A DNA stretch of 64,000 bases from Bacilli bacterium. Lineage in GTDB: Bacteria; Bacillota_I; Bacilli_A; RFN20; CAG-826. The notes under the pieces were generated by a model, which saw only the letters and a program-made list of their open reading frames with translations, had not been told where the DNA came from and did not search any database. Shown here one piece after another: positions 4,528 to 43,082 of the stretch (positions within the stretch are counted from its first letter, which is position 1; each line of letters starts with the position of its first letter). A program made the translations under genes and the position numbers. The stretch spans positions 179,267-243,266 of the forward strand of contig JAFSOD010000004.1 of assembly GCA_017447165.1 (NCBI GenBank), given 5' to 3'.

Positions 4528-5697
4528 TCACTTATTATAAATAACTTTTGGTCCACTGTCCTTAACAAATATTTCTTGAACATTATTTTCTCCGTAGTGT
4601 TCTTTCATTTTTACTAAAACTTTTTCTAGTTTAGAAGTAGGAACTAAAGCAATAACACTTCCTGCAAAGCCACCACCATTAATTTTGACAGCCCCTTGAT
4701 TATCGCTATATTTCATTAATAAATCACACGCTTCTAAAGGTGAACCTTCGTAGTTAGATCCCACCATCATATTTTTTAAATATTTAGTGGAAGATTCTCT
4801 TGATTCATTAATCATTTTTAAAAATGTTTCTTGTTCATTATCCTGTAGTGCTTTAAAAGCATTTCTCACTCTAGAATTTTCTCCATAAAAATGTTTAGCT
4901 CTTAAATAAGCCATCTCACTCATCTCACTTTTATGAGCTTCTACTTCCTCAAAAGTACCTTCGACTAAATAATTATGTCCACACGCTTTAGCGGCTTCAT
5001 ACATATCACTAGGTATAGAAGAATATAAATCACTGAGAGATGAATGATCTCCACCAGTATTTACTAAAACAAAGTGTAAATCTTTAAATGGGAATTCAAT
5101 TTGTTCAACTAGAGGATCATCAATATTTTTAAAGTCAATTTTTACAACTCCACCAAAACCAACTCCAATTTGATCCAAAAGACCACTTTTCTTTCCAAAA
5201 TATTCATTTTCTGCGTATTTTCCAGCTTTACAAAGTTCTAATTTAGAGATCTTGCCATTATTAAATAAAACATTAAAAATGTGTCCCACTAAAAGTTCGA
5301 AAGCAGCAGAGCTAGATACGCCCGCTCCTTTAAAGATTGTGGATTCGCTATAAGCGTTAAATCCTCCAACTTTGTAGCCATGTTCTTTTAAATAAGCAGC
5401 AACTCCTCTTATTAATCCTTTTGAAGTTGCGTATTCTTTTTCATTCGCGTTTAAATCAGATAAATCTACTTCATCTAACTCAAAACCTAGAGATTGAAAT
5501 AAGACTTTATTAGAGTCGTTTTTACTAACTGAAGCAACAATTTCTAAATTACAAGCACTGGCTAAACATAGACCGTGGTTATGATCTGTATGATTGCCTA
5601 AGATTTCAAAGCGTCCACCACAGGAAAAAACATGTTCAGTGTCACTAACAAATATCTTTTTATATTCAGATAATAATTTAGAAACGTTATCTTCCAC
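4528..5697 (-). CDS. galK: galactokinase (GHMP kinase)
   Basis: Galactokinase signature GGRFEILGNHTDHNHG and GHMP motif GAGVSSSAA. Confidence 0.8.
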   Translation of the reverse strand: MEDNVSKLLSEYKKIFVSDTEHVFSCGGRFEILGNHTDHNHGLCLASACNLEIVASVSKNDSNKVLFQSLGFELDEVDLSDLNANEKEYATSKGLIRGVAAYLKEHGYKVGGFNAYSESTIFKGAGVSSSAAFELLVGHIFNVLFNNGKISKLELCKAGKYAENEYFGKKSGLLDQIGVGFGGVVKIDFKNIDDPLVEQIEFPFKDLHFVLVNTGGDHSSLSDLYSSIPSDMYEAAKACGHNYLVEGTFEEVEAHKSEMSEMAYLRAKHFYGENSRVRNAFKALQDNEQETFLKMINESRESSTKYLKNMMVGSNYEGSPLEACDLLMKYSDNQGAVKINGGGFAGSVIALVPTSKLEKVLVKMKEHYGENNVQEIFVKDSGPKVIYNK

Positions 5698-6254
5698 TAT
5701 TTGATTTTTCTTCCTTCTGAAAATGCTTGTCCAACTTTTTTACCCACAACATAATAGCCATGGTTAAAAGGATCATATGAAATGATTTGCATTTTTTCTA
5801 AATCAACTTTACCGTTTTCATCTAGATATTTATCATCCACTAAGAGTTGAACAATATTACCAATAATTCCATAGTCCTCTTTAAAACATTCAAGTGTACA
5901 CTCTAAAGAATAAGGTAAGTCATCTAAAATTGGCGCGTCCACTAATTCACTCTTATGAGCTTTCCAACCAGTTTTTTCAAACTTCTTTGGATCATTTTTA
6001 CTAGATACAACACCAACAAAATCCGCTGGAACCATATTGCTAACATTAGCCAAAGAAACAGTAAAGGCTTTTCTTTTTCTAATATTCTCAGTTGTGCGAT
6101 GAGAATCAGAAATATTAAGTTCGATTTGTTTTGTGTCAAATGCGCATCCCCAAGCCGCGTTCATTACATCGATAGAACCATCATCATTGTAGGTTGCTAT
6201 TAAAATTACAGGCATTGGGAATATTGCTGGGCAAATATTCATTTTCTTTTTCAT
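5697..6254 (-). CDS. flavin reductase-like FMN-binding protein
   Basis: 185 aa. The segment PMPVILIATYNDDGSIDVMNAAW is typical of the flavin-reductase split-barrel family. Confidence 0.7.
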   Translation of the reverse strand: MKKKMNICPAIFPMPVILIATYNDDGSIDVMNAAWGCAFDTKQIELNISDSHRTTENIRKRKAFTVSLANVSNMVPADFVGVVSSKNDPKKFEKTGWKAHKSELVDAPILDDLPYSLECTLECFKEDYGIIGNIVQLLVDDKYLDENGKVDLEKMQIISYDPFNHGYYVVGKKVGQAFSEGRKIK

Positions 6255-6257
6255 AGA

Positions 6258-7418
6258 TTATTCCTCCTCATTTTCACATATATAATTCATTAATCTATTA
6301 CAAGCATCTATTAAATTGCTTCTTGGAGTAGCGATATTTAATCTAATATATCCTTCTGCTGATTTTCCATAGTTAATTCCAGGCGCAACAACTAAGCCTG
6401 TAGATTCTTTTAGTCTTTTTACAAATAACCTTGAATCTTTACTATAATAAGAAATATCAATCCATACTAAATAGGTATAAGTTCCGCTGACAATTTTAAA
6501 ATTCGGATGGTTTTTGCGCAAAAATTCAATCAAAAATGTTCTATTTTCATTTAAATATGAGTTTAATTGATCTACATACTCATCTCCACAAGTAAAAGCA
6601 GTAATAACCGGATCAACTGCAAAATAATTTGGTTCACCAATATCGTCTTGCCAAAACCCGTTTTGCACCATTTCTTTTAACTCGTTATTAGGGATAATAG
6701 CTACTGAAGAATGTAATCCAGCAACATTAAATACCTTACTAGGAGATAACAATGTAATTACTTTGTCGTATTGAGTGACTCCACTATTTAAAATAGAGAT
6801 ATATCTTCCTTTATTTAGATCAATATCGCCATGAATTTCATCAGATATTACATAGACATTATTTTGTTTACATAGGTTAATTATCTTATTTAATTCATCT
6901 ATTGTAAATTTTCTTCCTAGTGGATTATGAGGATTACATAATAAGAAAAATTCCGCTCCATGTAGTTGAGTTTCTAGTTTTTTCCAATCAATACTAAGAT
7001 CTTTATCTAGAATAAATTCACACTCCTTTAGAACTAAATTATTGTTTTTGATACAGTTAAAAAACACATTATAAACAGGGGTGAACATTACAACTTCATC
7101 TTTTGGTTCACCTAAATGTTTAAATATAGAATCAATTGAGGCCACAACTGATTTAGAAAATATAAACCAATCTTTTTCTAATGTTGTGCTATGTCGATCT
7201 CTCCACCAACGAATATATGCTTGGTAATATGAATCAGGGACAAATGTATAGCCATAGCAAGCTTGCTCTGCCCTAGCTTTAATTGCTTTTTTTATTTCTG
7301 GCATAGCCATAAAATCCATGTCGGCAATATCTAAAGGAAGTTCACCTTCATTTACATTCCAACGAATACTACATGATTCTTTTCTATTTATAGAAGCATC
7401 AAAATTATATTTGCTCAT
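6258..7418 (-). CDS. PLP-dependent aminotransferase class I/II, MalY/PatB-type C-S lyase
   Basis: 386 aa. PLP-lysine region LSPSKVFNVAGLHSS and overall MalY/PatB-like layout. Confidence 0.75.
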   Translation of the reverse strand: MSKYNFDASINRKESCSIRWNVNEGELPLDIADMDFMAMPEIKKAIKARAEQACYGYTFVPDSYYQAYIRWWRDRHSTTLEKDWFIFSKSVVASIDSIFKHLGEPKDEVVMFTPVYNVFFNCIKNNNLVLKECEFILDKDLSIDWKKLETQLHGAEFFLLCNPHNPLGRKFTIDELNKIINLCKQNNVYVISDEIHGDIDLNKGRYISILNSGVTQYDKVITLLSPSKVFNVAGLHSSVAIIPNNELKEMVQNGFWQDDIGEPNYFAVDPVITAFTCGDEYVDQLNSYLNENRTFLIEFLRKNHPNFKIVSGTYTYLVWIDISYYSKDSRLFVKRLKESTGLVVAPGINYGKSAEGYIRLNIATPRSNLIDACNRLMNYICENEEE

Positions 7419-8253
7419 TGATGATTATCTCCGTTTTAGAAACATCAATTTTATCTTTTTCTAATATTAACTTTTTTATGCCTTTGCATTCAATTCTTCC
7501 AGAGATTGGATTTTTAACTGAATCAATAACACTTTTGACTTTTATATCTAAACGAGAACAATATTCAAAACATAAATCAGAATCAATTAGTTCACAATTA
7601 ATCATTTTAACGTTATCCATATAGCATAATCCCTGGTGTGAAATGATTTTGCAGTTTATAAACGTCACATTTTTACTATTCCAAGCTAGATACTCTCCAA
7701 TAATCGTAGAATCTGTAACAACGACATTTTCGACATTCCAAAAAGCATCTTTGGTTTTCAAAACTGAATTATGGATCTTGATGTTTTTTGCCCCATCAAA
7801 GCCATAATTTCCATCTAAAGATAAATTTTCAATTTCTAACTCTTCAGAATTAAAACCAAAATAATCGCCTTTAACTTCAATATTAATTAATTTAACACCC
7901 TTACATTTCCAAAGTGTTTCATCTGCATGCGGTAATTTAACATTTATTAAGGATATAGATTCACTTCTTCTAAATGTTTTAGGAGCTTCGATTATTGTAT
8001 CTATTATTTCAATGTTTTTTGTGTACCATATTCCGCTTCTTGCGGTATATAACAATTTTGAATTTCTTACTTTAACATTCTGGCAATACCATAATGGGTA
8101 TTTCCATTGAAAAGTTGATTCAATTATTTGGATATCTTTGCTTTCCTTTAATGGAGACTCTCCATCATGAAAATAACATTTATGAAAAGTGGCCTCACTA
8201 GTCATAAACATCGCTCGCTCACCACTAAAAGACTGTTCGTTATAATATTTCAT
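7405..8253 (-). CDS. DUF3737-family protein
   Basis: 282 aa with repetitive beta-helix-like segments. Family assignment is from memory of similar clostridial proteins. Confidence 0.45.
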   Translation of the reverse strand: MKYYNEQSFSGERAMFMTSEATFHKCYFHDGESPLKESKDIQIIESTFQWKYPLWYCQNVKVRNSKLLYTARSGIWYTKNIEIIDTIIEAPKTFRRSESISLINVKLPHADETLWKCKGVKLINIEVKGDYFGFNSEELEIENLSLDGNYGFDGAKNIKIHNSVLKTKDAFWNVENVVVTDSTIIGEYLAWNSKNVTFINCKIISHQGLCYMDNVKMINCELIDSDLCFEYCSRLDIKVKSVIDSVKNPISGRIECKGIKKLILEKDKIDVSKTEIIINEQI

Positions 8254-8254
8254 A

Positions 8255-8932
8255 TTATTTACTTTGTTGAATTAAACTATCAAGATAGTTAATTAGGCTA
8301 TCAACACCTTCATTTTTTATAGAAGAAAGAGCAAATATTTTTGCTTCAGGATTTCTAAATAATATATTCTCTTTAGCCTTAGAAAGATCAAAATCAAAAA
8401 TATCAGCGACATCCATTTTAGAAATGACCGCGATTTTACTGACTTGGAACATAAGAGGATATTTTAATGGTTTATCGTGTCCTTCAGAAGTTGATAATAA
8501 CATCATGTTTATATTACTGCCTGTATCAAATTCAGCAGGACAAACAAGATTACCGACGTTTTCTAGTATTAATAAGTCTAAATCATCTACCCCAAAAGCT
8601 TTTAAGGCATCTTCCACCATTTGAGCGGTCAAATGACACGCTCCAGAAGTATGAACTTGAATGACTTTTACGCCGGTATTCTGACTAATTCTTTCCGCAT
8701 CAACATCCCCATCAATATCCGCCTCAAGAACACCAATACGGTATTTAGATTTTAAAGAATTAATTACTCTAGTTAATAAAGTAGTCTTTCCACTACCAGG
8801 GGAGGCCATGACATTAATAAAATAAATGCCTTTTTCTTTTAAAAATGCTCTTAAAGAGTCTGCTTTCTTATTATTTTCAATTAATATATCTTCTTTGACT
8901 TTAACAATTTGAATATCCATGTGTAATATCAT
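8255..8932 (-). CDS. hypB: HypB-type nickel-insertion GTPase (paralog 1)
   Basis: P-loop SPGSGKTTLL, CH metal motif HTSGACHLTA, ENVGNLVCPAEFDTG, NKxD-like SKMD. Confidence 0.8.
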   Translation of the reverse strand: MILHMDIQIVKVKEDILIENNKKADSLRAFLKEKGIYFINVMASPGSGKTTLLTRVINSLKSKYRIGVLEADIDGDVDAERISQNTGVKVIQVHTSGACHLTAQMVEDALKAFGVDDLDLLILENVGNLVCPAEFDTGSNINMMLLSTSEGHDKPLKYPLMFQVSKIAVISKMDVADIFDFDLSKAKENILFRNPEAKIFALSSIKNEGVDSLINYLDSLIQQSK

Positions 8933-8981
8933 ACCACAAAATAAAATATTTTATTTTAATATTTTTAATTTTCTAGATATA

Positions 8982-9665
8982 ATGATGAGGATGGAAAAAG
9001 TAAGAACTATTCTATTGAATCGTTCTGCCTATGCAGATAATGATCAAGAAGCTGATGAGCTAAGAAGCTATTTAAAAGACCACCAAACATTTGTGGTTAA
9101 TTTAATGTCTTCTCCAGGAGCGGGTAAAACCACTACTCTAATTAAATTAATCAACATTCTTAAGAAAGATTTTAAAATTGGGGTAATGGAAGCGGATATC
9201 GATAGTGATGTTGATGCAGTTAATGTCGCTAAAGAAACTGGAGTGACATCTATTCAATTACACACTAACGGAATGTGTCACTTAGATGCTGGCATGACTA
9301 AAACTGGACTAGACGGCATTAACTTCAATGATTTTGATCTTATTTTCTTAGAAAATGTTGGTAATCTTGTTTGCCCTGCCGAATTTGATACCGGGGCCTC
9401 TATGGATATGATGATTCTTTCTGTCCCTGAGGGCGATGATAAGCCAATTAAATATCCACTGGTGTTTGAAAAATCAAAACTAGTGCTCATAAATAAGATC
9501 GATGCTCTTCCATATTTCGACTTTAATATAGAGAAATGTATTTCTAATATTAAATACCGTAATAAAAATGCTACAATAATACCGATAAGTGCAAAAACAG
9601 GTAAAAATATCGATTTAGTCGCTAAATATTTCAAAGATATAGTTTCAAATTGGAGGAATAGCTAA
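8982..9665 (+). CDS. hypB: HypB nickel-insertion GTPase (paralog 2)
   Basis: SPGAGKTTTL, HTNGMCHLDAG, ENVGNLVCPAEFDTG, NKID. The ORF track starts at 8919, but an internal ATG near 8982-8991 after a TATAAT box is more plausible. The stop overlaps the next gene start (TAATG). Confidence 0.8.
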   Translation: MMRMEKVRTILLNRSAYADNDQEADELRSYLKDHQTFVVNLMSSPGAGKTTTLIKLINILKKDFKIGVMEADIDSDVDAVNVAKETGVTSIQLHTNGMCHLDAGMTKTGLDGINFNDFDLIFLENVGNLVCPAEFDTGASMDMMILSVPEGDDKPIKYPLVFEKSKLVLINKIDALPYFDFNIEKCISNIKYRNKNATIIPISAKTGKNIDLVAKYFKDIVSNWRNS

Positions 9666-12562
9666 TGCCAGAGAAATGTAAAAAACCAGAAGTCACATCA
9701 AAATATGATGGTGAAAAAGACTTTCATAAGAATTATGCGAAATTAGGTAAGAAAATTACTGATATTGTCCCACACAAATTATTTGGGGTGAAAAACACTG
9801 ACCCTGAATATTGGGGACTTAGAGAAGTATTAAATGAAGATCAAGTTAATTTCTTGCTTAAATTCAAACAAAGAAAATGGTATTTGATTGAAGACTTAAT
9901 TAAAAAGTTTAAAGGTCAATTTGAACCTGCTAGAGTGCAACAACTTTTAGATGAACTTTCTTATATTGGTTTTATTGAATATGACTATGGAGATAATTAT
10001 GCGGAAGATCATCCAATTAAAGACGCTCCAAAAATCAAAAGATATAGAATGTCTTATTTCGTCCCTGGTTCAGCTGAATTAATGAATTCCTCTATTGATA
10101 GAATTGAAAAAAATCCTGCAGTTACTAACTTCTTTGAAAGAATGACATTTGTTCCACTCGCGGGTATTACTGAAATGATTGGTCCAGGTGGTAACGGTAT
10201 TGGTATGCACACCATCCCAGTAGAAAAAGCTATTCAAGGAGAACAAAAATCTCTTCCAGTAGAACATATTTCCCACTGGTTAAATAAATATGAAGGTCAT
10301 ATCTCCGCTGGTATTTGTTCTTGTAGAGCAAGTAGAGCAAAATTAGGAGATGGATGTATCGACGATGTCGATGACTGGTGTATCCAAGTTGGTGATATGG
10401 CGGACTATACTGTTGAAACAAAACGTGCCCACTATATCACAAAAGAAAGAGCCTTAGAGATTCTTGAACTCGCTGAGAAAAACGGATTCGTTCACCAAAT
10501 TACTAATATCGACGGCAAAGACCATATCTTTGATATTTGTAACTGTGATGTTAAAATCTGTAACGCTTTAAGAACATCAATGTTATTTAACACTCCTAAC
10601 TTATCTAGAAGTGCTTATACCGCTAAAGTCACTACTACTAACTGTGTGGCGTGCGGACAATGTGTTGCTAACTGTCCTGCTGGAGCGGTTAAACTCGGAC
10701 AAAAATTATGTAAAGGCGACGGCAAAGAACAAAAATATCCAAGTCAACCATTACCAGATAAAATCCACTGGGGTAAATATGCTTGGGATGAAAATTATAG
10801 AGACACTGCTAGAGCCAGTGATACCTATCCAACAGGTACCGCTCCTTGTAAAGTGGCTTGTCCAGCTCATGTCCCAGTTCAAGGCTATTTAAAGATGGCT
10901 CATGAAGGAAGATATAGAGAATCCTTAGCATTAATTAAAACTCAAAACCCATTCCCAGCAGTCTGTGGTAGAGTCTGTAATAAACGCTGTGAAGATGAAT
11001 GTACTAGAGGAAAAATCGATCAAGCCGTCTCTATTGATGCGGTCAAAAAATTTGTCGCTGATTTAGAAATCAACTCTAAAGATAGATATATTCCTGAAAA
11101 GATTATCCCATCAGTTCACGGGGAATTTGACGAAAAAATCGCCATTATTGGAGCAGGTCCAGCAGGATTATCTGCTGCCTACTATTTAGCAATCGCAGGC
11201 TTTAGACCAACTGTCTTTGAAAAAAATGAGAAGCCAGGTGGAATGTTAAGATATGGTATTCCTTCTTATAAATTAGAAAAAGATGTAATCGATGCCGAAA
11301 TCGATGTCATCAAAGCGCTTGGTGTTGAAATCAAATGTGGAGTCGAAGTGGGTAAAGACGTCACTATCGAATCCTTAAAGAAGGAAGGCTATAAAGCATT
11401 CTATATCGCGATTGGCTGTCAAGGCGGAAGAAGACCTGGTGTTAATAATGACACCGCTAAAGGTACAGAGATTGCTGTCTCTTATTTAAGAGAAGCGCTT
11501 GATAAGCAAAAAGAATTTAAAGGCAAAGTGGTCGTCGTTGGTGGCGGTAACGTCGCTGTTGACTGTGCTAGAACTGCTCATAGATTAAAAGCAGAATCTG
11601 TTTCTATGTACTGCTTAGAAGATAGAGACCACATGCCTGCTAGTAATGATGAAATTAGAGAAACTCTTGAAGAAGATATTTCTATCAATAACTCTTGGGG
11701 ACCAAAAGAAGTTCTCGTTAACGAGAAAGGTGAAGTTAAAGGTATTGTCTTTAAGAAATGTACATCCGTTACTGATAAAGATGGTAAATTCAATCCTCAA
11801 TATGATGAAAACGACACTATTACCGTGGAAGCTGATAAGATTATCTTTGCTATCGGTCAAGCCATTGAATGGGGCGACTTATTAAAAGGCACTAAAGTTG
11901 AGTTCTGGCATGGCAATTATCCATTCGCTGATAAAGTCACATATCAAACTAACGATGATGATATCTTTGTAGGTGGCGATGTCTTCACCGGACCAAAATT
12001 TGTTATTGATGCAATCGCCGCTGGTCACGCTGTTGCTGACGCTTTAGCAAGACACGTAAGACCAAATGCTCACCCAACCATCGCCTTTAATAAGAGAGGA
12101 TTCACTCCACTTAATAAAGATGATATTACTCTTCCAGGATATGACGATGCTGGTAGACAAGAAGAAGGTATGGATGAGTCCATCGACTATAAGAATAGCT
12201 TCAAAGATGCTCATAAGACTTTAACTGAAGAGCAAGTGAAGATCGAAACTGGTAGATGCTTATCTTGTGGTGCCGCATTTGTTGATCCACATAAATGTAT
12301 CGGTTGTGGTATTTGTACCACAAAATGTGAATTTGATGCGATTCACTTAGTAAGAGACCATCCAAAAGCTTCTACTATGAGATTCGCCGAAGATAAAGTT
12401 ACTGGCTTACTTAAATATGCTGTACCAAGATGGTTCAAGATTATGTTTAACGCTGGTAGCAAAGAAGCCAGAATGATGAGAAAGAAACGTAAAGCATGGA
12501 AGAAACACTACAAAGTAGCAAAGAAGACCATGCCAGATACAGGTAACGCCGTCGATGCATGA
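9665..12562 (+). CDS. multidomain Fe-S flavoprotein oxidoreductase (YgfK-like), embedded in the hyp operon
   Basis: 965 aa. A Cys-rich N-terminal domain of about 330 aa is followed by 2x[4Fe-4S] (CVACGQCVANCP) and a GltD-like FAD/NAD(P) domain (AIIGAGPAGLSAAYYL, VVVVGGGNVAVDCA). A C-terminal 2x[4Fe-4S] ferredoxin (CLSCGAAF...CIGCGICTTKC) follows. The start overlaps the hypB stop and the stop overlaps the hypA start. Confidence 0.7.
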   Translation: MPEKCKKPEVTSKYDGEKDFHKNYAKLGKKITDIVPHKLFGVKNTDPEYWGLREVLNEDQVNFLLKFKQRKWYLIEDLIKKFKGQFEPARVQQLLDELSYIGFIEYDYGDNYAEDHPIKDAPKIKRYRMSYFVPGSAELMNSSIDRIEKNPAVTNFFERMTFVPLAGITEMIGPGGNGIGMHTIPVEKAIQGEQKSLPVEHISHWLNKYEGHISAGICSCRASRAKLGDGCIDDVDDWCIQVGDMADYTVETKRAHYITKERALEILELAEKNGFVHQITNIDGKDHIFDICNCDVKICNALRTSMLFNTPNLSRSAYTAKVTTTNCVACGQCVANCPAGAVKLGQKLCKGDGKEQKYPSQPLPDKIHWGKYAWDENYRDTARASDTYPTGTAPCKVACPAHVPVQGYLKMAHEGRYRESLALIKTQNPFPAVCGRVCNKRCEDECTRGKIDQAVSIDAVKKFVADLEINSKDRYIPEKIIPSVHGEFDEKIAIIGAGPAGLSAAYYLAIAGFRPTVFEKNEKPGGMLRYGIPSYKLEKDVIDAEIDVIKALGVEIKCGVEVGKDVTIESLKKEGYKAFYIAIGCQGGRRPGVNNDTAKGTEIAVSYLREALDKQKEFKGKVVVVGGGNVAVDCARTAHRLKAESVSMYCLEDRDHMPASNDEIRETLEEDISINNSWGPKEVLVNEKGEVKGIVFKKCTSVTDKDGKFNPQYDENDTITVEADKIIFAIGQAIEWGDLLKGTKVEFWHGNYPFADKVTYQTNDDDIFVGGDVFTGPKFVIDAIAAGHAVADALARHVRPNAHPTIAFNKRGFTPLNKDDITLPGYDDAGRQEEGMDESIDYKNSFKDAHKTLTEEQVKIETGRCLSCGAAFVDPHKCIGCGICTTKCEFDAIHLVRDHPKASTMRFAEDKVTGLLKYAVPRWFKIMFNAGSKEARMMRKKRKAWKKHYKVAKKTMPDTGNAVDA

Positions 12563-12899
12563 GTTAGGTATCGTCGTTCACGTTATTAATCAAATCGAAA
12601 AAATTGCCGAAGAAAATAAAGTTAATAAAGTCGTTGAACTCACTTTAGAAGTGGGCGAAGTTTCTGGGGTAGTTAAAGAATATTTTGTTGATGCATTCAA
12701 CTGGTCAATTAAAAAGACCAAGTATATGAAGGAATGTAAACTAAATTTTGTCACTATCAAAGGAATTACTTACTGCGAAAGTTGCGGTAAGACCTACTCC
12801 ACGACTGAGTATGGCAAAGAATGTCCATATTGTCACTCTGGTAAGACCTATCTAGTTACTGGAAAAGAAGTTTCAATTAAGGATATTAAAGTTATCTAA
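12555..12899 (+). CDS. hypA: hydrogenase/urease nickel-incorporation protein HypA
   Basis: MHELGIV start and Zn site CESCG...CPYCHSG. Confidence 0.85.
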   Translation: MHELGIVVHVINQIEKIAEENKVNKVVELTLEVGEVSGVVKEYFVDAFNWSIKKTKYMKECKLNFVTIKGITYCESCGKTYSTTEYGKECPYCHSGKTYLVTGKEVSIKDIKVI

Positions 12900-12905
12900 A
12901 TAAAC

Positions 12906-12934
12906 AAAAAGACGCAGGCTCCCGCGTCTTTTTC
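12906..12934. terminator. bidirectional terminator
   Basis: AAAAAGACGCaggctccCGCGTCTTTTT lies between convergent genes. Confidence 0.7.
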
Positions 12935-13602: not shown

Positions 13603-14826
13603 ATGGAATTAGAAAGATTAAAAGAATATGCTTCATTATTAGCCTTAAGAGGTCTTAATGTTCAAAAAGGAGAAGAAGTTTGGGTTAACTGTCAAACTCA
13701 CCAAATGGAATTTGTCCGTTTAGTGGTTGAAGAATTATATAAAGCAGGTGCAAAAAAAGTTAGAGTCAGATTATCTGATGATGAGATAACAAAAATCGGA
13801 TATAGGTACGCAAGTGCTGCTGTTTTAAGTAAAGTACCTAATTACACTATCGCTGAATATAAATATATGGTGAAACATAACCCAAGTATGTTACACATCA
13901 TTTCTAAAGATCCAGATGCATTTAAAGAAATCTCTCAGGCCAAGTTAAGCAAAGTAATGTTTTCTTTTAGAAAAAAGGTCAAACCATATAGAGATTTAAT
14001 GGACGGCAAATACAAATGGTGTATCGCTGCGGTTCCTTCAAAAGCTTGGGCAGAAAAAGTCTTCCCTAAATTAAAAGGTGAAGAAGCAATTGAAGCATTA
14101 TGGGAATCTATTCTTTCTTGTTCTAGAGTTGATGGACATGCAGTTAAAAACTGGGATGACCATAATGCTGAACTCATGAAACATAGAAAACAACTTGCGG
14201 CATTAGACCTTCAATATTTAGAATATAAAGCCTCTAACGGCACTAACTTCAAAGTCGAGCTTATGAAAGATGTCCTTTGGGGTGGCGGAGTTGAGTTTAC
14301 AGATAAAGGTTTATCTTATAATCCTAATATCCCAAGTGAAGAGGTTTTCACTTCTCCTAAAGCCGGCTCTATCGAAGGTATCGTCTATGCATCTAAACCA
14401 TTAAGCTATAATGGTCAAATAATTGATGAATTCTGGCTCAAGTTTGAAAATGGAAGAGTCAGTCAAGTAGGCGCAAAAAAGAATCAAAAATTATTAGAGC
14501 ATATGGTCGCAACTGACGAAGGTGCGCGTATGTTAGGCGAAGTAGCTTTAGTCCCTTATGACTCACCGATTCAAAATTCAAAAATCTTGTTCTACGAGAC
14601 TTTATTTGATGAGAATGCCGCCTGCCACTTAGCGTTAGGGCATGGCTTTAAAGAACTCTTCCCAGAAGGAGCGTCTATCTCAAACGAAGAAGCCAGAAGA
14701 AGAGGATTAAATGACTCAATGATTCACGTTGATTTTATGATTGGTACCTCTGATTTAGAGATTATTGGTACCTCCTTTAACGGTAAGAAAACAACTATCT
14801 TTAAAAATGGAAACTGGGCAATTTAG
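13603..14826 (+). CDS. aminopeptidase, M29 (AmpS/PepS) family
   Basis: 407 aa with the typical M29 N-terminus MELERLKEYASLLALRGLNVQKGEEVWV. Confidence 0.8.
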   Translation: MELERLKEYASLLALRGLNVQKGEEVWVNCQTHQMEFVRLVVEELYKAGAKKVRVRLSDDEITKIGYRYASAAVLSKVPNYTIAEYKYMVKHNPSMLHIISKDPDAFKEISQAKLSKVMFSFRKKVKPYRDLMDGKYKWCIAAVPSKAWAEKVFPKLKGEEAIEALWESILSCSRVDGHAVKNWDDHNAELMKHRKQLAALDLQYLEYKASNGTNFKVELMKDVLWGGGVEFTDKGLSYNPNIPSEEVFTSPKAGSIEGIVYASKPLSYNGQIIDEFWLKFENGRVSQVGAKKNQKLLEHMVATDEGARMLGEVALVPYDSPIQNSKILFYETLFDENAACHLALGHGFKELFPEGASISNEEARRRGLNDSMIHVDFMIGTSDLEIIGTSFNGKKTTIFKNGNWAI

Positions 14827-14838
14827 GGGGTTTTTGAC

Positions 14839-16038
14839 ATGGAATATGCTTTATTAGCGGTATTAATTGTAGTTTTTATCGGTTTGGTTATCTTAACCAT
14901 TTTCGTGATTAAACTTTCAAAAAAACCAAACAAAGTTGATGGGACAATTTCTGAAAAAGAATTAGGAATGTTGTCACAGCAAATTAAGTCTCTTGAAGAA
15001 GTTTTGAAGAAAGATATTGAAATCTCATTAGCGAAAGAAATGCTTCAAGTCAACGAGGCTAATAACCAAAAGTTAGAAAGATTCCAATCTAACATCATTG
15101 AACAAATGACTAATAGATTCGAAGCCATCAATCTTCAACTTGGTGAGAAAATGAAAGAGATTAATCAAAAGGTTGAAGACAAACTTAAAGAAGGGTTCCA
15201 GGGAACAAGCGAGACTATGGCTCAAGTTAGAGAAAGGCTTAAGGTCATTGATGAAGCTCAAAAGAATATGGAATCTCTATCGAAAGATGTTGTTTCATTA
15301 AGAAGCATTATGGAAGGCAACCAAACTAGAGGAGCATATGGAGAATATCAACTTAATATGGTTCTTCATAACGTTTTTGGAGACACAGTAGGATGCTACC
15401 AAGAACAATACACTATTAAAAAGGTAAAAGATGGTGATGATGTCCGTGCGGATGCAGTCGTTTTTATGCCTGAGCCAAACAAAATGATTTGTATTGATTC
15501 AAAATTCCCATTCCAAGATTATGAAAGACTAATGAAAGAGGATAATGAATCAGCAAAAGAAGAATATAAGAAACAATTTGCTGCAGCAGTTAAAAAACAT
15601 ATCACTGTTATTAAAGACAAATATATTATTGATGGTAAAACTGCTCCAGAAGCATTGATGTTTATTCCAAACGATGGAGTATTTGCCTATATTCATCAAG
15701 AATTATTAGATGTAGTTGATTATGCTAGAGAAAAGCGAGTAATTCTTACTTCTCCAAGTACTCTTCCAGCAATACTAGTAACCATTAATATGGTTAGAAT
15801 AGAAGCAGAAAGAGCGAAGAACGTTAAAGAAATATCTAAACAATTAGATTTCTTAGGTAGACAATTTGCGATGTTCTCTAAAGAATGGGATACATTCTCG
15901 AAACAACTTGAAACCGCTTCTAGATCAAGAGAAAAACTTGATACTAGAGTAAATCGTATTACAACAAAGTTTGATGCGATATCAACTAATAGCGACGTTG
16001 AAATTGAAGCTATAGAAGAAAACAAGGCTGATGATTAA
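14839..16038 (+). CDS. rmuC: DNA recombination protein RmuC
   Basis: N-terminal TM helix, long coiled-coil and C-terminal RmuC nuclease-like domain. Confidence 0.75.
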   Translation: MEYALLAVLIVVFIGLVILTIFVIKLSKKPNKVDGTISEKELGMLSQQIKSLEEVLKKDIEISLAKEMLQVNEANNQKLERFQSNIIEQMTNRFEAINLQLGEKMKEINQKVEDKLKEGFQGTSETMAQVRERLKVIDEAQKNMESLSKDVVSLRSIMEGNQTRGAYGEYQLNMVLHNVFGDTVGCYQEQYTIKKVKDGDDVRADAVVFMPEPNKMICIDSKFPFQDYERLMKEDNESAKEEYKKQFAAAVKKHITVIKDKYIIDGKTAPEALMFIPNDGVFAYIHQELLDVVDYAREKRVILTSPSTLPAILVTINMVRIEAERAKNVKEISKQLDFLGRQFAMFSKEWDTFSKQLETASRSREKLDTRVNRITTKFDAISTNSDVEIEAIEENKADD

Positions 16039-16223
16039 TCAACCTTTTTCTTATCTTCTTTTTTATCTTTGGCCTTAAATATCAGCCATCTTCTTTTCAT
16101 TTCTTTTTCGTTTTTTTCAGCAACTACTTTGCCAGTCACTAATACAGTAATAATAATCCCGATTATAATCAGAAGCACAATACCTGCAGTTGCGCTTAAA
16201 AAGACAATTAATCTAGTTTGCAT
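16035..16223 (-). CDS. small membrane protein
   Basis: 62 aa with a single TM helix and lysine-rich tail. Confidence 0.3.
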   Translation of the reverse strand: MQTRLIVFLSATAGIVLLIIIGIIITVLVTGKVVAEKNEKEMKRRWLIFKAKDKKEDKKKVD

Positions 16224-16226
16224 ATT

Positions 16227-17657
16227 TTATCTTTTGAGTTTTTCCAATGAGTCAACAATAGTCTGACTCTTAGCTTCCATGCCGTACTTATCAACATCAG
16301 CCTTATTTCTCACTTCGTGAGTTAGTGAACATGGTCCGCCAATGCAGCCGCCAGGACAAGCCATTCCTTCAATAAAGTTATAGTCTTTATTGCCTGCTTT
16401 TACCTTTAATAACGCTAAACGAATATTTTCTAAGCCATCAACTGGTAATGGCCTATAATCGAATTCTAATTCTCTTTCTTTGATAGCTTCTCTAACCGCA
16501 TCAGTAATACCTCTACTTCTTGCGAAGATTCTACCGAAATAAGAGGCATTATCAAATGGTGATTCCTCTAATTTAGAGGCATCTATTTCTCTAGCGTCAA
16601 TAAGAGCCTGCAACTCTTCAAAAGTTAAAGTAACATCAACGTAAGGTTTAACAGACTCTAATTTGATTTCATGTTTTTTAGAAATACATGGTCCTATAAA
16701 CATTATTTTCGCAGTTGGATAATGTTCTTTAATCCATTTGGCGATGCTCGCCATCGGAGACAAATTAGAAGATATGTGTTCTACTAATGTAGGAAAATTC
16801 TTTTTGATATAGGTAACAAATGTTGGGCAGCAACTAGAAGTCAAAAATCTTTTTTCAACTAATTCTTTAGCCTCGTTATATGCGACCATATCCGCACCTA
16901 AAGCCGCTTCCACTATTTCTGAGAATCCTAATTCGTGCATTGCTGAGGCGATTTGGCCTAAGGTTGCATATTTAAACTGAGTAGATATTGTTGGAGCAAC
17001 AATAGCGACAGTTGGATATTTTTTACCAAAATCACTATCCTTTAGGATATCGATAGCTTCTTTAATATAAGATTTATCCATGATAGCGCCAAATGGACAT
17101 TGATAAACACAAGCTCCACATTGGACACACTTCTCATCATCGATTTGGGCAGCATTATCTTCGCCCATGCTTATAGCATGAACTTTACATGCTTGTTCAC
17201 ATGGTCTTTGATAGTTTTGAATTGCCCCATATTGGCATGCTTTAGCGCACATTCCACAGTTGATACATTTCTCTTTATTAATACGCGCCGCGTGGGTAAT
17301 ATCATCAAAACTAATCGCATCTTTATGACATGCCATCTGGCATCTATGAGCGATACAACCTCTACACCTATTAGTGACTTCATATCCACCTAAAGGACAT
17401 TCATCACATGCCACTTTAATAACTTCAACAATGTTATTTATATCTTTAGATCCACCTAAGGCTAATTTCATTCTTTCTAAAACGATTGCTCTCTCTTTAT
17501 AGATACAGCAACGCATTGTTGGCTTTGGACCAGGAACAATCTTATTAGGAATAGAATTATAATCTTCTAAAAGGGTGCCATTAAAATAAGATTTCGCAAT
17601 CTCTTTAAGCACCTTATATTTAAGTTCTTGTACTTTGGTATCAAATACAGCGGACAT
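16227..17657 (-). CDS. [FeFe]-hydrogenase family protein (ferredoxin-like domains plus H-cluster domain, non-canonical motifs)
   Basis: Several CxxCxxCxxxCP ferredoxin motifs. H-cluster-like L1 TSSCCPTF, L2 GPCISKKHE, L3 EGMACPGGCIGGPC. Confidence 0.65.
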   Translation of the reverse strand: MSAVFDTKVQELKYKVLKEIAKSYFNGTLLEDYNSIPNKIVPGPKPTMRCCIYKERAIVLERMKLALGGSKDINNIVEVIKVACDECPLGGYEVTNRCRGCIAHRCQMACHKDAISFDDITHAARINKEKCINCGMCAKACQYGAIQNYQRPCEQACKVHAISMGEDNAAQIDDEKCVQCGACVYQCPFGAIMDKSYIKEAIDILKDSDFGKKYPTVAIVAPTISTQFKYATLGQIASAMHELGFSEIVEAALGADMVAYNEAKELVEKRFLTSSCCPTFVTYIKKNFPTLVEHISSNLSPMASIAKWIKEHYPTAKIMFIGPCISKKHEIKLESVKPYVDVTLTFEELQALIDAREIDASKLEESPFDNASYFGRIFARSRGITDAVREAIKERELEFDYRPLPVDGLENIRLALLKVKAGNKDYNFIEGMACPGGCIGGPCSLTHEVRNKADVDKYGMEAKSQTIVDSLEKLKR

Positions 17658-26775: not shown

Positions 26776-26938
26776 GCAGAGCTAAATAGGCTCAGACAGG
26801 TTTTTATTTTAACTTAACAGGTTTTCTTCTTTTTATAATTCTTATTGTCAATCTATCATCAGGGTGTATTTTCATACCAATCAATTCTCTTGATCCAAAA
26901 TGCTTACGTTTACCCTGAACAGGTCTATTGTTCACAAA

Positions 26939-27127
26939 CTAAGCCTTAACTTTATTTTCGGTAGGATGTTTTAGTTTTGTCTGATGTCTATGTTGAGATG
27001 TTCCTGTGATAACAGCAATATAAATGTTCTTTTTATCATTCTTTAAAACAATTAAACCAGGGTGTTTGTTTACTATATAAAATTTTCCTTTTTCTAAATG
27101 TTTGTTATAAATCTTTTTCTTACTCAT
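26939..27127 (-). CDS. small basic protein, family A (short form), cassette 1
   Basis: 62 aa MSKKKIYNKHLEKGKFYIVNKHPGLIVLKNDKKNIYIAVITGTS..., homologous to the 29037-29441 product. SD AGGAGGAAAT precedes it. Confidence 0.5.
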   Translation of the reverse strand: MSKKKIYNKHLEKGKFYIVNKHPGLIVLKNDKKNIYIAVITGTSQHRHQTKLKHPTENKVKA

Positions 27128-27142
27128 ATTTCCTCCTTTCTG

Positions 27143-27424
27143 TTATGTATTTCGTGTTTTTGGGGATCCACATACGGCAAAAACTAAACTATCAATTCCT
27201 TTTTTATAATTCTCTACCAGCCTATCTGATAATTCTTTTTGCTCTGGAGACAACTCATATTCAAGATGAATAGGTGCTTTCTTTGGGTAAGATGGTTTAT
27301 GTTCTACTTCTTCGCCTCGAAAAGAGATGCATCTACGACAATAAGGTTTGCCGTTTAGATAGCCAATAGAATGAATATCAGTGTTGCCACAAACTGGACA
27401 AGTAAATGAAAGCTGGTTATCCAT
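27143..27424 (-). CDS. stand-alone ComFA N-terminal zinc-finger domain paralog (ends at the Walker-A position), cassette 1
   Basis: 93 aa. It is identical to ComFA residues 22-100 or so except K to R, yet its DNA differs at about 15-20% of positions, almost all synonymous. It ends ...AVCGSPKTRNT*. Its ATG overlaps the stop of the upstream small ORF. Confidence 0.6.
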   Translation of the reverse strand: MDNQLSFTCPVCGNTDIHSIGYLNGKPYCRRCISFRGEEVEHKPSYPKKAPIHLEYELSPEQKELSDRLVENYKKGIDSLVFAVCGSPKTRNT

Positions 27425-27821
27425 TTTTCTTGCCTTTCTTTTTATGTTTTGATTTAATACTGGTAGATGGTGTGCGCCCTTTCTGGGTTAAAGCTTCATT
27501 CGTTAGCTTTCCACCATTTTTTCTTTGCTCTTTAATTAGTGAAACATATACATCTATTTTTATTTCATCGGAAACTACTAAACGATACTTTTTAAGTTCT
27601 TGTCCTCTATGTCGGAGTTTATCTTTTCTTATATACTTTCTGAAATAAGATTTCTTGTCTGAATTGGGATTTGGATTTACATCAAATTCTTCATAATTTC
27701 CAGTTACAGTTGGACTATCAGTTATTTCGATATTTTCCCATGTTCCATCTTCTAGAACACTGATTTCTATTGATGGGTGGTATTTAGTTCTTTTGTTTTT
27801 AAATATTTTATATTTATTCAT
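27417..27821 (-). CDS. small basic protein, family B, cassette 2
   Basis: 134 aa. Shares motifs KxHPSIE..., NPNP and RKY(I/L)RKD...RGQ with the 28361-28687 product. Confidence 0.5.
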   Translation of the reverse strand: MNKYKIFKNKRTKYHPSIEISVLEDGTWENIEITDSPTVTGNYEEFDVNPNPNSDKKSYFRKYIRKDKLRHRGQELKKYRLVVSDEIKIDVYVSLIKEQRKNGGKLTNEALTQKGRTPSTSIKSKHKKKGKKNG

Positions 27822-27840
27822 GTATCAATTCCTTTCTATG

Positions 27841-28113
27841 TTATGGATTTGTTGTTTTTGGTGATCCACATACGGCAAAAACAAGACTATCTAAGCCTTT
27901 TTTGTAATTCTCAACTAACTTATCCGATAGTACTTTTTGCTCTGGAAACAGTTCGTACTCTAAATGAATAGGCGCCTTTTTAGGGTATGATGTTTTGTGT
28001 TCCACTTCTTCACCTTTAAAAGAGATACACCTACGGCAATAAAGTTTGCCGTTCAACATACCAATTGAATGAATATCAGTGTTACCACATACAGGACATT
28101 TATAAGGTTCCAT
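27841..28113 (-). CDS. stand-alone ComFA N-terminal zinc-finger domain paralog, cassette 2
   Basis: 90 aa MEPYKCPVCGNTD...CRRC...AVCGSPKTTNP*, about 90% identical to the ComFA N-terminus. It has its own SD AAAGGTGA. Confidence 0.6.
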   Translation of the reverse strand: MEPYKCPVCGNTDIHSIGMLNGKLYCRRCISFKGEEVEHKTSYPKKAPIHLEYELFPEQKVLSDKLVENYKKGLDSLVFAVCGSPKTTNP

Positions 28114-28142
28114 ATTGAATTATCACCTTTCTTTTGATTTAA

Positions 28143-28226
28143 AATAGCCATAGTCGTGGTCATCACTAGTTTGATGCCGGCCCACAGGAAGCTGTGTAGC
28201 TCCATTAACGGGGCTTTTTATTTTTA
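28143..28226. repeat. structured element copy 1 (two hairpins plus GC stem and U-run on the plus strand)
   Basis: GGTCATCActagttTGATGCC, then CACAGgaagCTGTG, then AGCTCCattaacGGGGCT followed by TTTTTATTTTT. It is homologous to 28975-29062 with compensatory changes in the middle stem. Confidence 0.5.
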
Positions 28227-28360
28227 CGGTTTTATAATATTTGCCATATATTGGGCATTTATAAGTTTCTATATTGCGTTACCTCCTTAATTTTGTTTTA
28301 ATATTTGTAGTTAGTGCTATCGGTTAATCCGACCAAAGCCCAAGTTTAGTAGGTTTTACA

Positions 28361-28687
28361 CTAACTTTTTTTGTTGTTTAAATAGTTTTCAATTTCAATT
28401 AAATCATCTTCTGATAGGTTGAATTTTTCCAAAAGTTGACCTCTTGTTTTAATTGGATCCTTTCTTAAATACTTTCTAACATATGCTTTATCATTTCTTT
28501 TTGGATTCGGATTTACTTTAAGCTCAATATATCTGTTCTTCTTAGTGGGGCTTGAAGTTACTTCTAAATTAATCCAAATAGTTCCGTTTGAATCTACTTC
28601 TATGCTTGGATGATTTTTTGTTTTTCTGTTTTTATAGAATTTGAATTTTTTGCTCATTTGACACCTCCTTTTTGTTATGGTTTTCAA
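28361..28687 (-). CDS. small basic protein, family B, cassette 3
   Basis: 108 aa. Same family as the 27417-27821 product. Confidence 0.5.
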   Translation of the reverse strand: MKTITKRRCQMSKKFKFYKNRKTKNHPSIEVDSNGTIWINLEVTSSPTKKNRYIELKVNPNPKRNDKAYVRKYLRKDPIKTRGQLLEKFNLSEDDLIEIENYLNNKKS

Positions 28688-28694
28688 GTCTTTG

Positions 28695-28952: not shown

Positions 28953-28974
28953 CATCTCCTTAAATTTGATTTAA

Positions 28975-29441: not shown

Positions 29442-29478
29442 ATTTTCCTCCTTTCTTGTTATGTTTTTAGTATCTTTA

Positions 29479-43011: not shown

Positions 43012-43082
43012 TAATATTATAGACCTTTAAAAATATATGAAAAGGAGTGATTTTCTTCACTCCTTGTAAGTTATGTTAATAA

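What the first reader, a model, noticed from the sequence alone, without database searches (positions are those of the whole stretch)
8255..12899. Nickel-chaperone genes hypB and hypA translationally coupled to a 965-aa Fe-S flavoprotein, with a second divergent hypB and no Ni enzyme in sight
hypB (8982-9665), the 965-aa ORF and hypA overlap by TAATG and ATGCATGA, so they form one operon. A second HypB paralog (8255-8932) is transcribed divergently. HypA/HypB normally mature [NiFe]-hydrogenase, and related GTPases mature urease and CODH. None of those enzymes is encoded in this 64-kb window. The embedded protein is a YgfK-like fusion: a Cys-rich N-terminal domain, a GltD-type FAD/NAD(P) domain with 2x[4Fe-4S], and a C-terminal ferredoxin. 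Embedding such a protein inside a hyp operon is unusual. It suggests either a Ni-dependent redox enzyme or an electron-transfer partner of a hydrogenase encoded elsewhere.
Basis: partly seen in the sequence, partly recalled or inferred. Interest (0 to 1): 0.55.

Follow-up and report, generated by a model that had tools for sequence, protein, structure and literature searches.

The report
IsrA-like reductase with nickel chaperones
A gut or rumen bacterium keeps the nickel-delivery genes hypB and hypA wrapped around a 965-aa iron-sulfur flavoprotein, a pairing already published for relatives of the putative isoprene reductase IsrA, so this is a new member of a known but biochemically untested enzyme family.

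Summary
hypB (8982-9665), a 965-aa ORF (9665-12562) and hypA (12555-12899) overlap by TAATG and ATGCATGA. They lie between a promoter-like site and a terminator. A second hypB (8255-8932, 47% identical) is divergent. No [NiFe]-hydrogenase, urease or CODH is in the window.

The arrangement is not unusual for this family, and it is not new. The 965-aa protein aligns end to end (42% identity, E=0) with IsrA, the putative isoprene reductase of Acetobacterium wieringae. Kronen et al. 2023 (PMC10134865) reported hypA and hypB next to 73% and 56% of 988 IsrA homologs. They proposed nickel insertion into a Cys6 site.

My own sample of 80 genome loci gave hypA in 70 of 72 assessable loci and hypB in 60 of 73. 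The six cysteines plus His277 are invariant in 76 of 76 full-length homologs.

The window protein is not an IsrA ortholog. It lacks IsrA's 26-aa insert and the five-gene isr operon, so its substrate is unknown.

One new lead emerged. Its 71%-identical relatives sit beside a homolog of the Propionibacterium acnes linoleate isomerase and lipid genes. This hints at reduction of conjugated fatty-acid dienes.

Nickel binding and activity remain untested anywhere in this family.

The parts
8255..8932 (-). hypB-1, the divergent HypB paralog (225 aa). It has Walker A GSGKT, a CH motif at residue 99, NVGNLVCP at 125, and SKMD in place of NKxD. There is no N-terminal CxxCGC motif.
   Evidence: TIGR00073 240.8 bits against cut-off 121.2. 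47% identical to hypB-2. Motifs. Its stop lies 1 nt from the start of the DUF3737 gene.
8933..8981 (.). A 49-bp divergent intergenic region. It holds a promoter-like site for the + operon (8956-8983) and a perfect 20-bp AT palindrome (8938-8957).
   Evidence: The palindrome is not conserved in the sister species L007, so its significance is doubtful.
8982..9665 (+). hypB-2 (227 aa), the first gene of the operon. It has GAGKT, CH at residue 99, NVGNLVCP at 125 and NKID at 171.
   Evidence: TIGR00073 213.8 bits. Motifs. Its TAA stop overlaps the ATG of the next gene.
9665..12562 (+). [quoted passage not shown]
   Evidence: 42% identity to IsrA (P0277) over 913 columns, E=0. Pfam and NCBIfam domains. 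AF2 model with pLDDT 89.6.
10316..10561 (+). The Cys6 site of the N-terminal domain: C218, C220, C239, C292, C294 and C299. It also carries invariant R221, H277, N281, N293 and R303. This is the proposed catalytic and nickel-accepting site.
   Evidence: Invariant in 149 of 149 sequences (A3) and in 76 of 76 genome-derived homologs. The spacing between the CxC motifs is 74 residues, the same as IsrA C180/C182 to C254/C256.
10628..10711 (+). An N-terminal ferredoxin-type motif, CxxCxxCxxxCP (C327, C330, C333, C337), plus C349.
   Evidence: Pfam Fer4 at residues 322-342. Conservation.
10835..12025 (+). The NfnB/GltD/DPD-type module. It combines Fer4_20 (two [4Fe-4S] clusters, aa 391-470) with an FAD/NAD(P)H-binding domain (aa 491-787).
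   Evidence: Pfam PF14691 and PF07992. Foldseek hits 9bov_A, 8oh5_C, 5jca_L, 4ylf_B and DPD at E 1e-43 to 1e-29.
12257..12373 (+). A C-terminal ferredoxin-type motif (C865, C868, C878, C881, C884, C888).
   Evidence: Pfam Fer4 at residues 872-893. Invariant.
12555..12899 (+). hypA (114 aa). It has the N-terminal MHE nickel motif and two CxxC zinc motifs (CESC at 74, CPYC at 90).
   Evidence: PF01155 100.6 bits. Motifs. ATGCATGA overlaps the stop of the upstream gene.
12906..12933 (.). A bidirectional intrinsic terminator that closes the operon.
   Evidence: the sequence is shown.

Best explanation
hypB-2, the 965-aa gene and hypA form one three-gene operon. It encodes an IsrA-family reductase together with its own metallochaperones.

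Shown here:
- The genes are translationally coupled and bounded by a promoter-like site and a terminator.
- The protein is a full-length homolog of IsrA.
- Linkage of this family to hypA and hypB is nearly universal in the loci I sampled.
- Six cysteines, His277 and several polar residues of the N-terminal domain are invariant.

Inferred mechanism:
1. NAD(P)H reduces FAD in the NfnB/DPD-like module.
2. Electrons pass along four [4Fe-4S] clusters, two in Fer4_20 and two in ferredoxin-type motifs.
3. They reach the N-terminal Cys6(+His) site.
4. That site carries an unusual Fe-S or Ni-Fe-S centre. HypB, a GTPase, loads HypA with Ni(II), and HypA inserts it.
5. The site reduces a poorly activated C=C bond, by analogy with IsrA (isoprene to methylbutene).

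The substrate of this particular enzyme is unknown. Context in its 71%-identical relatives points to conjugated dienes of fatty acids as one candidate. The second HypB may be a spare chaperone or a heterodimer partner. Pairs of hypB genes recur in 6 of 80 loci.
For: - Operon anatomy.
- HypA and HypB identity and intact metal motifs.
- Identity of P0277 as IsrA. It is 901 aa, named Acetobacterium wieringae, and encoded on GCA_902175055.1 in the published five-gene operon IsrA-HypA-HypB-Fd-HypA. It aligns with the window protein at 42% identity over 913 columns, E=0.
- Published neighbourhood statistics and the Ni/Cys6 proposal (PMC10134865).
- An independent test on 80 genome-contig loci from Bacillota, Bacteroidota, Spirochaetota and Actinomycetota. 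hypA was in 70 of 72 assessable loci and hypB in 60 of 73. Both were in 54 of 66 and neither in 1 of 66. The exact B-X-A order occurred in 40 of 66.
- No other Ni enzyme recurs in these neighbourhoods.
- Invariance of C218, C220, C239, C292, C294, C299 and H277.
- A confident full-length model (pLDDT 89.6) whose core matches NfnB, StnC and DPD.
- In Pelotomaculum cultures, hypA and hypB transcripts rose 373-fold and 585-fold under isoprene (bioRxiv 10.64898/2026.02.25.708027).
- The lipid-context lead.
Against: - No member of the family has been purified, and nickel content and activity are untested.
- HypA falls below the stricter TIGR00100 cut-off (74.5 bits against 88.1).
- I could not search the rest of this genome for [NiFe]-hydrogenase, hypCDEF, urease, CODH or LarA.
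- About 18% of assessable loci lack hypB nearby.
- A Cys6 arrangement with two CxC motifs can also describe Ni-free sites. One example is a ferredoxin:thioredoxin-reductase-type [4Fe-4S] cluster with a disulfide (my own knowledge; the paper also cites FTR).
- Homologs 47-49% identical to IsrA come from Acetobacterium strains that do not reduce isoprene. Function therefore cannot be transferred at 42% identity.
- The window has no isomerase or lipid genes nearby.
Confidence: 0.6

Rival explanations
1. HypA and HypB do assist the 965-aa enzyme, but not by delivering a catalytic nickel. They might insert another metal such as Zn, Co or Fe. Alternatively they might act as a GTP-driven assembly or repair factor for an all-iron Cys6 centre, such as an FTR-like [4Fe-4S] cluster with a disulfide, or a double-cubane-type cluster.
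For: - Metal content is unknown for the whole family.
- G3E GTPases as a class serve several metals (established knowledge; the Pfam cobW/HypB/UreG family).
- The paper notes that the Cys6 site resembles FTR-type CxC sites and double-cubane or P-cluster sites as well as the ACS A-cluster.
- HypA scores below the hydrogenase-type equivalog cut-off.
- In 4 loci the gene lies beside an HGD-D-type protein and its ATPase activator, a double-cubane-like system.
Against: - Both HypB proteins pass the HypB equivalog model and keep the Cys-His...Cys nickel site.
- HypA keeps the MHE nickel-binding N-terminus in 70 of 72 loci.
- These are the residues that bind Ni in characterised HypA and HypB (and my own knowledge).
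Confidence: 0.25
2. HypA and HypB mature a classical nickel enzyme encoded elsewhere in the genome ([NiFe]-hydrogenase, urease, CODH). The 965-aa protein is merely its co-regulated electron-transfer partner.
For: - The rest of the genome could not be inspected.
- The protein has an NfnB-type NAD(P)H/ferredoxin-like module that could shuttle electrons.
- Pelotomaculum, which has a close IsrA homolog, also has [NiFe]-hydrogenases.
Against: - A. wieringae ISORED-2 has the same linkage yet lacks [NiFe]-hydrogenase structural genes and hypCDEF. Its other Ni enzymes have their own maturases (PMC10134865).
- No hydrogenase, urease or CODH gene family recurs in the 80 neighbourhoods, and none is in this 64-kb window.
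- An invariant Cys6/His site of its own argues that the protein is a catalyst and not a simple wire.
Confidence: 0.08
3. The adjacency is accidental. An unrelated oxidoreductase gene was inserted into a hypBA pair in this lineage.
Against: The same linkage occurs in 70 of 72 loci across several phyla, with overlapping or nearly abutting reading frames. It also occurs in 73% and 56% of 988 homologs in the published analysis.
Confidence: 0.02

Closest known systems
IsrA, the putative isoprene reductase of Acetobacterium wieringae ISORED-2 / strain Y, and its 'clade 9' homologs (Kronen et al. 2023, mSystems, PMC10134865)
   Same: - The architecture matches from end to end: an N-terminal domain without database matches that carries two CxC motifs 74 residues apart (the Cys6 site), then a ferredoxin motif, Fer4_20, an FAD/NAD(P) domain and a C-terminal ferredoxin motif.
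- It aligns at 42% identity over 913 columns.
- It has hypA and hypB as immediate neighbours.
- It occurs in strict anaerobes.
   Different: - It lacks the 26-aa insert (IsrA 756-782) found only in the isoprene-reducing subclade.
- It lacks the companion 4Fe-4S ferredoxin gene.
- It has one hypA and two hypB, whereas IsrA has two hypA and one hypB.
- The gene order is B-X-A, whereas the isr operon is X-A-B-Fd-A.
- Homologs at similar distance come from strains that do not reduce isoprene. The substrate is therefore probably different.
NfnB / StnC / NfnABC large subunits and dihydropyrimidine dehydrogenase (GltD-type Fe-S flavoproteins)
   Same: Residues from about 390 to 800 share the fold and cofactor motifs: NAD(P)H, FAD and two [4Fe-4S] clusters. 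Foldseek gives E 1e-43 to 1e-29 at 26-36% identity. As in DPD, a chain of Fe-S clusters probably carries electrons from the flavin to a distant site that reduces a C=C bond.
   Different: These enzymes have no counterpart of the 320-aa N-terminal Cys6 domain and no link to nickel chaperones. NCBIfam scores are all below the family cut-offs. The best is NF009410, at 442.8 bits against 516.
   Same: A large fusion of an N-terminal extension, a GltD-type core and a C-terminal ferredoxin.
   Different: Only the core aligns, at 269.7 bits against a cut-off of 835.3, covering residues 392-869. The N-terminal domains are unrelated.
HypA/HypB nickel delivery to [NiFe]-hydrogenase, and to urease in Helicobacter pylori
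   Same: The chaperone families and metal-binding residues are the same. The HypB proteins are 'type 1', like H. pylori HypB, with no N-terminal CxxCGC site.
   Different: There is no hypCDEF and no hydrogenase or urease structural gene in the window. The presumed client is a flavoprotein.

Membership tests
IsrA-like 'clade 9' oxidoreductases (PMC10134865) | Aligns over essentially the whole 901-aa IsrA sequence, not just the 500-aa GltD-type core | tested here: met
   BLASTP against P0277 (IsrA): 42% identity, 913 columns, query 20-899 against subject 1-878, E=0.
IsrA-like 'clade 9' oxidoreductases (PMC10134865) | An N-terminal Cys6 site with two CxC motifs | tested here: met
   C218/C220 and C292/C294 are 74 residues apart, as in IsrA (C180/C182, C254/C256). 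C239 and C299 complete the six. All are invariant in 76 of 76 and 149 of 149 homologs.
IsrA-like 'clade 9' oxidoreductases (PMC10134865) | Fer4_20 plus an FAD/NAD(P) domain plus two further ferredoxin-type motifs | tested here: met
   Pfam PF14691, PF07992 and PF00037 at residues 322-342 and 872-893.
IsrA-like 'clade 9' oxidoreductases (PMC10134865) | hypA and/or hypB within a few genes | tested here: met
   Both overlap the gene.
IsrA proper (isoprene-reducing subclade, isr operon) | The 26-aa insert at IsrA 756-782, and the five-gene operon with a paralogous 4Fe-4S ferredoxin and two hypA genes | tested here: not met
   The alignment shows a gap at the insert. The operon here is hypB-X-hypA, whereas the isr operon is X-hypA-hypB-Fd-hypA.
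IsrA proper (isoprene-reducing subclade, isr operon) | Isoprene-induced expression and isoprene reduction by the organism | not testable with these tools
   This needs cultures or enzyme assays.
HypB (TIGR00073) | Score above the equivalog cut-off, GTPase motifs, and the Cys-His...Cys metal site | tested here: met
   240.8 and 213.8 bits against 121.2. GxGKT, CH and NVGNLVCP are present in both. hypB-1 has SKMD where hypB-2 has NKID.
HypA (PF01155 / TIGR00100) | Full-length HypA domain, the MHE N-terminus and two CxxC motifs | tested here: met
   PF01155 scores 100.6 bits against 28.9. MHE, CESC and CPYC are present. TIGR00100 scores 74.5 bits, below its cut-off of 88.1.
[NiFe]-hydrogenase maturation system | hypCDEF and hydrogenase large and small subunit genes in the genome | tested here: inconclusive
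   They are absent from the 64-kb window. The remainder of the genome could not be searched.
YgfK (TIGR03315) | Score above the equivalog cut-off over the full length | tested here: not met
   269.7 bits against 835.3. Only residues 392-869 align.
NfnB / GltD small-subunit family | Family-level score, a two-domain protein of about 460-500 aa, and a partner subunit | tested here: not met
   The core fold matches. TIGR01316, TIGR01317 and TIGR01318 all score below their cut-offs. The protein has 470 extra residues, and no NfnA or GltB gene is adjacent.

The most novel reading that the evidence does not exclude
The orthologous group that contains the window protein could be the nickel-dependent reductase that saturates conjugated dienes of fatty acids in gut and rumen biohydrogenation. 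[quoted passage not shown] No reductase gene for this step turned up in my literature searches.

The basis is gene context in close relatives:
- In L009 a homolog of the P. acnes linoleate isomerase (best PDB match 2B9W, E 4.6e-136) sits in the order isomerase-hypB-X-hypA. That X is 71% identical to the window protein.
- L010 and L016 have the order isomerase-X-hypA.
- L011 and L018 add an acyl-ACP thioesterase, a carrier protein, an acyl-AMP ligase and a PPTase.
- The published A. woodii homolog lies beside an oleate hydratase.
Probability: 0.2. Interest if true: 0.8.

Novelty: new member of a known kind. Interest (0 to 1): 0.42.

Why it matters
If the published hypothesis is right, this family would be a new class of nickel enzyme, a flavin/Fe-S reductase with a Ni-bearing Cys6 centre. 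It would also be a third client type for HypA and HypB, after hydrogenase and urease.

The family is abundant in gut and rumen anaerobes. Its substrates could therefore matter for host lipid or terpenoid metabolism.

For this particular window the value is confirmatory. It is a clean, compact example of the operon in an uncultured Erysipelotrichaceae-like bacterium, and it could serve as an expression construct.

Tried and rejected
- **Sequence and profile searches of the N-terminal 390 aa against Pfam and PDB.** They found only the ferredoxin motif and weak winged-helix hits (AsnC, TFE). Nothing matched the Cys6 region.
- **AF2 of the N-domain alone with 14 sequences.** It gave pLDDT 57. Its Foldseek hits were weak MarR-like matches to residues of about 20-130, with no hit at E<=0.001. 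I treat this as inconclusive.
- **Foldseek of the confident full-length model.** Hits were dominated by the NfnB/DPD module. The tool returns no coordinates, so I could not measure Cys-Cys or cluster distances.
- **An exact-protein look-up for the ORF at 52140-53732.** It failed, and I replaced it with Pfam scans.
- **The idea that the nearby [FeFe]-hydrogenase is functionally linked.** Rejected, because that adjacency exists only in this lineage and its sister L007.
- **The 20-bp palindrome between the two hypB genes as an operator.** It is not conserved in L007, where an extra gene separates them.
- **Literature searches for a characterised gut homolog, or a link to biohydrogenation.** They found nothing beyond the IsrA papers.
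- **YgfK membership.** Rejected.


Full report
**Observation**

- One HypB-type GTPase lies at 8255-8932 on the minus strand.
- A second lies at 8982-9665 on the plus strand. The longest ORF starts at 8919, but homology and public gene calls start at 8982 or 8985.
- A 965-aa ORF lies at 9665-12562.
- A 114-aa ORF lies at 12555-12899.

The raw sequence shows TAA (9663-9665) overlapping ATG (9665-9667), with GGAGG eight bases upstream. It shows ATGCATGA at 12555-12562. A sigma-70-like site lies at 8956-8983, and a strong bidirectional terminator at 12906-12933 brackets the three plus-strand genes.

Both GTPases pass the NCBIfam HypB equivalog, at 240.8 and 213.8 bits against a cut-off of 121.2. 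They are 47% identical to each other. The small protein matches Pfam HypA end to end. It carries MHE at its N-terminus and two CxxC motifs.

Pfam annotation of the rest of the window shows housekeeping genes, surface proteins and an [FeFe]-hydrogenase-type gene at 16227-17657. It shows no [NiFe]-hydrogenase, urease, CODH/ACS or LarA.

**What the 965-aa protein is**

Pfam and NCBIfam see only a GltD/NfnB-type core (Fer4_20 at 391-470, Pyr_redox_2 at 491-787) and two ferredoxin-type motifs (322-342, 872-903). Every NCBIfam family model scores below its cut-off, including YgfK at 269.7 bits against 835.3. Residues 1 to about 320 match nothing in Pfam or in PDB sequences.

A literature search led to Kronen et al. 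2023 (PMC10134865). They describe IsrA as a 901-aa isoprene-induced oxidoreductase of Acetobacterium wieringae ISORED-2. It is encoded with two hypA genes, one hypB gene and a ferredoxin gene, in a genome without [NiFe]-hydrogenase or hypCDEF.

I recovered IsrA itself as P0277. It is 901 aa, carries the A. wieringae name, and lies on GCA_902175055.1 in the published five-gene arrangement. The window protein aligns with it over 913 columns at 42% identity, E=0. The N-terminal domain is included in that alignment.

The two CxC motifs (C218/C220 and C292/C294) are 74 residues apart, exactly as in IsrA. Together with C239 and C299 they form the paper's 'Cys6' site. In an alignment of 149 homologs spanning both subclades, these six cysteines, H277, N281 and N293 are invariant. 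In 76 independent full-length homologs from named genomes, the same residues plus R221 and R303 are 100% conserved.

**Is the hypAB linkage systematic?**

The paper reports hypA beside 73% and hypB beside 56% of 988 homologs. I tested this independently.

The best 80 loci come from Erysipelotrichaceae, Clostridia, Lachnospiraceae, Oscillospiraceae, Bacteroidales, Spirochaetia, Coriobacteriia and Acholeplasmatales. All 80 encode the N-domain in a gene of the same family. Where the contig allows, that gene is full length, at roughly 900-1000 aa.

Iterated HMM searches of their ORFs gave these counts:

| Feature | Loci |
|---|---|
| hypA present (of loci where the flank is assessable) | 70 of 72 |
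| hypB present | 60 of 73 |
| both present | 54 of 66 |
| neither present | 1 of 66 |
| exact hypB-X-hypA order | 40 of 66 |
| two hypB genes | 6 of 80 |

Clustering all neighbouring ORFs showed only three other recurrent families: DUF5692, a GntR/FCD regulator and a small membrane protein. No hydrogenase, urease or CODH family recurred. However, 'unusual' is the wrong word, because this is the family's normal context and it is already published.

**Structure**

A full-length AlphaFold2 model built on 149 sequences is confident, with pLDDT 89.6 and pTM 0.89. Foldseek against the PDB matches only the NfnB, StnC, NfnABC, DPD and GltD module. The best hit is 9bov_A at E 1e-43 and 36% identity over 496 columns, and the query-normalised TM-score never exceeds 0.45. 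About half of the protein therefore has no solved counterpart.

A model of the N-domain alone was poor (pLDDT 57). It gave only weak winged-helix matches for residues of about 20-130. This is consistent with weak AsnC and TFE profile hits. I could not obtain coordinates to measure distances.

**Mechanism**

Shown:
- The operon structure.
- Family membership.
- The conserved linkage to hypA and hypB.
- Invariant ligand candidates in the N-terminal domain.
- Intact nickel-binding motifs in HypA (MHE in 70 of 72) and in HypB (CH plus NVGNLVCP, with no N-terminal CxxCGC).

Inferred:
- The electron path runs NAD(P)H, then FAD, then four [4Fe-4S] clusters, then the Cys6/His site. This is analogous to the flavin-to-cluster-chain wiring of DPD.
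- HypB and HypA load nickel into that site.
- The site reduces a weakly activated C=C bond.

As of the 2026 preprints, no member has been purified. In Pelotomaculum cultures hypA and hypB transcripts rise 373-fold and 585-fold with isoprene, but the authors still cannot separate an IsrA-like enzyme from a hydrogenase.

**Not an IsrA ortholog**

The window protein lacks IsrA's 26-aa insert and the isr operon layout. The paper shows that Acetobacterium strains whose homologs are 47-49% identical to IsrA do not reduce isoprene. The substrate here is therefore open.

**A lead on substrate**

Five of the 80 loci (L009, L010, L011, L016, L018) carry a 462-479-aa FAD protein directly upstream of the gene.
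- L009 has the order isomerase-hypB-X-hypA.
- L010 and L016 have the order isomerase-X-hypA.

The best PDB relative of this protein is the 2B9W group, at E 4.6e-136. [quoted passage not shown] The depositor name is only 'putative aminooxidase', and I could not confirm the identification in the paper library.

In L011 and L018 the cluster also holds an acyl-ACP thioesterase, a carrier protein, an acyl-AMP ligase, a PPTase and two tandem paralogs of the reductase. The L009 enzyme is 71% identical to the window protein over the full length. It is almost identical around the Cys6 site. The paper also notes an oleate hydratase beside the A. woodii homolog.

This suggests, but does not show, that this orthologous group reduces conjugated fatty-acid dienes. 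The window itself has no such neighbour.

**The second hypB**

hypB-1 is followed on the minus strand by DUF3737, a PatB-type C-S lyase, a flavin reductase and a galactokinase. The first junction is a 1-nt gap, and the others are short overlaps or gaps of a few bases. This arrangement is kept in the sister species L007. There, an extra 184-aa gene separates the two hypB genes. Tandem hypB pairs precede the reductase gene in L031, L032, L034 and L036, and follow it in L035. Two HypB paralogs per reductase are thus a minor recurring theme. A heterodimeric HypB is possible but untested.

**Verdict**

The finding is real and biologically interesting. It is an instance of a published, still uncharacterised family, so it counts as a new member of a known kind.

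Noticed in passing
window 16227-17657 (-): A 476-aa [FeFe]-hydrogenase-type protein (Fe_hyd_lg_C plus two ferredoxin domains) lies 3.3 kb downstream of hypA. The adjacency exists only in this lineage and its sister L007, so it is probably unrelated to the operon.
   Followed up: yes
L009:186-1625, L010 and L016:~8557-9987, L011:5628-7016, L018:2770-4158: A homolog of the 2B9W protein (E 4.6e-136) sits directly upstream of the reductase or its hypB. From memory, 2B9W is the P. acnes linoleate isomerase. L011 and L018 add an acyl-ACP thioesterase, a carrier protein, an acyl-AMP ligase, a PPTase, a second amine-oxidase-like flavoprotein and an FAD/NAD/2Fe-2S reductase. This is a possible fatty-acid diene pathway.
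   Followed up: partly
window 4528-8932 (-); L039:14749-16744: hypB-1 heads a tightly packed minus-strand gene string: hypB-1, DUF3737, a PatB-type C-S lyase, a flavin reductase and a galactokinase. A DUF3737-PatB pair also lies 1.5 kb downstream of the reductase and hypA in the unrelated locus L039. Whether DUF3737 and PatB are functionally tied to the system is unknown.
   Followed up: partly
L033, L043, L064, L069 (and L054), within about 6 kb of the reductase gene: A 2-hydroxyacyl-CoA-dehydratase D-type protein (HGD-D), a BcrAD/BadFG-like activator ATPase and a 237-aa protein with a weak CdhC (acetyl-CoA synthase beta) match recur beside the reductase. The CdhC match is 27.7 bits against a cut-off of 24. 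The set is reminiscent of double-cubane cluster systems.
   Followed up: partly
window 8938-8957: A perfect 20-bp palindrome, AAAATAAAATATTTTATTTT, sits in the 49-bp gap between the divergent hypB genes. It is AT-rich and not conserved in L007, so it may be chance.
   Followed up: yes
L007:8691-9245: The sister species has an extra 184-aa gene between the two hypB genes, with its own terminator. The protein has a zinc-ribbon-like N-terminus and a hydrophobic C-terminal half.
   Followed up: no
L011:10001-12925 and 14015-16825; L018:7164-9980 and 10001-12922: Two diverged paralogs of the reductase lie in tandem and share a single hypA.
   Followed up: no
window 8255-8932 (-), residue 171: hypB-1 has SKMD where hypB-2 and most GTPases have NKxD (the G4 guanine-specificity motif). 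This may mean altered nucleotide specificity or a regulatory paralog.
   Followed up: no
window about 26900-29500 (-): A run of small ORFs of 62-134 aa has no Pfam match. It lies between a DEAD-box helicase gene and rpiB.
   Followed up: no
window 41317-49129 (-): A block of large secreted or surface proteins: an Endonuclease_1 protein with Big_2/Big_3 domains, then 865-aa, 675-aa and 424-aa proteins with Big_3 or InlB B-repeat domains.
   Followed up: no
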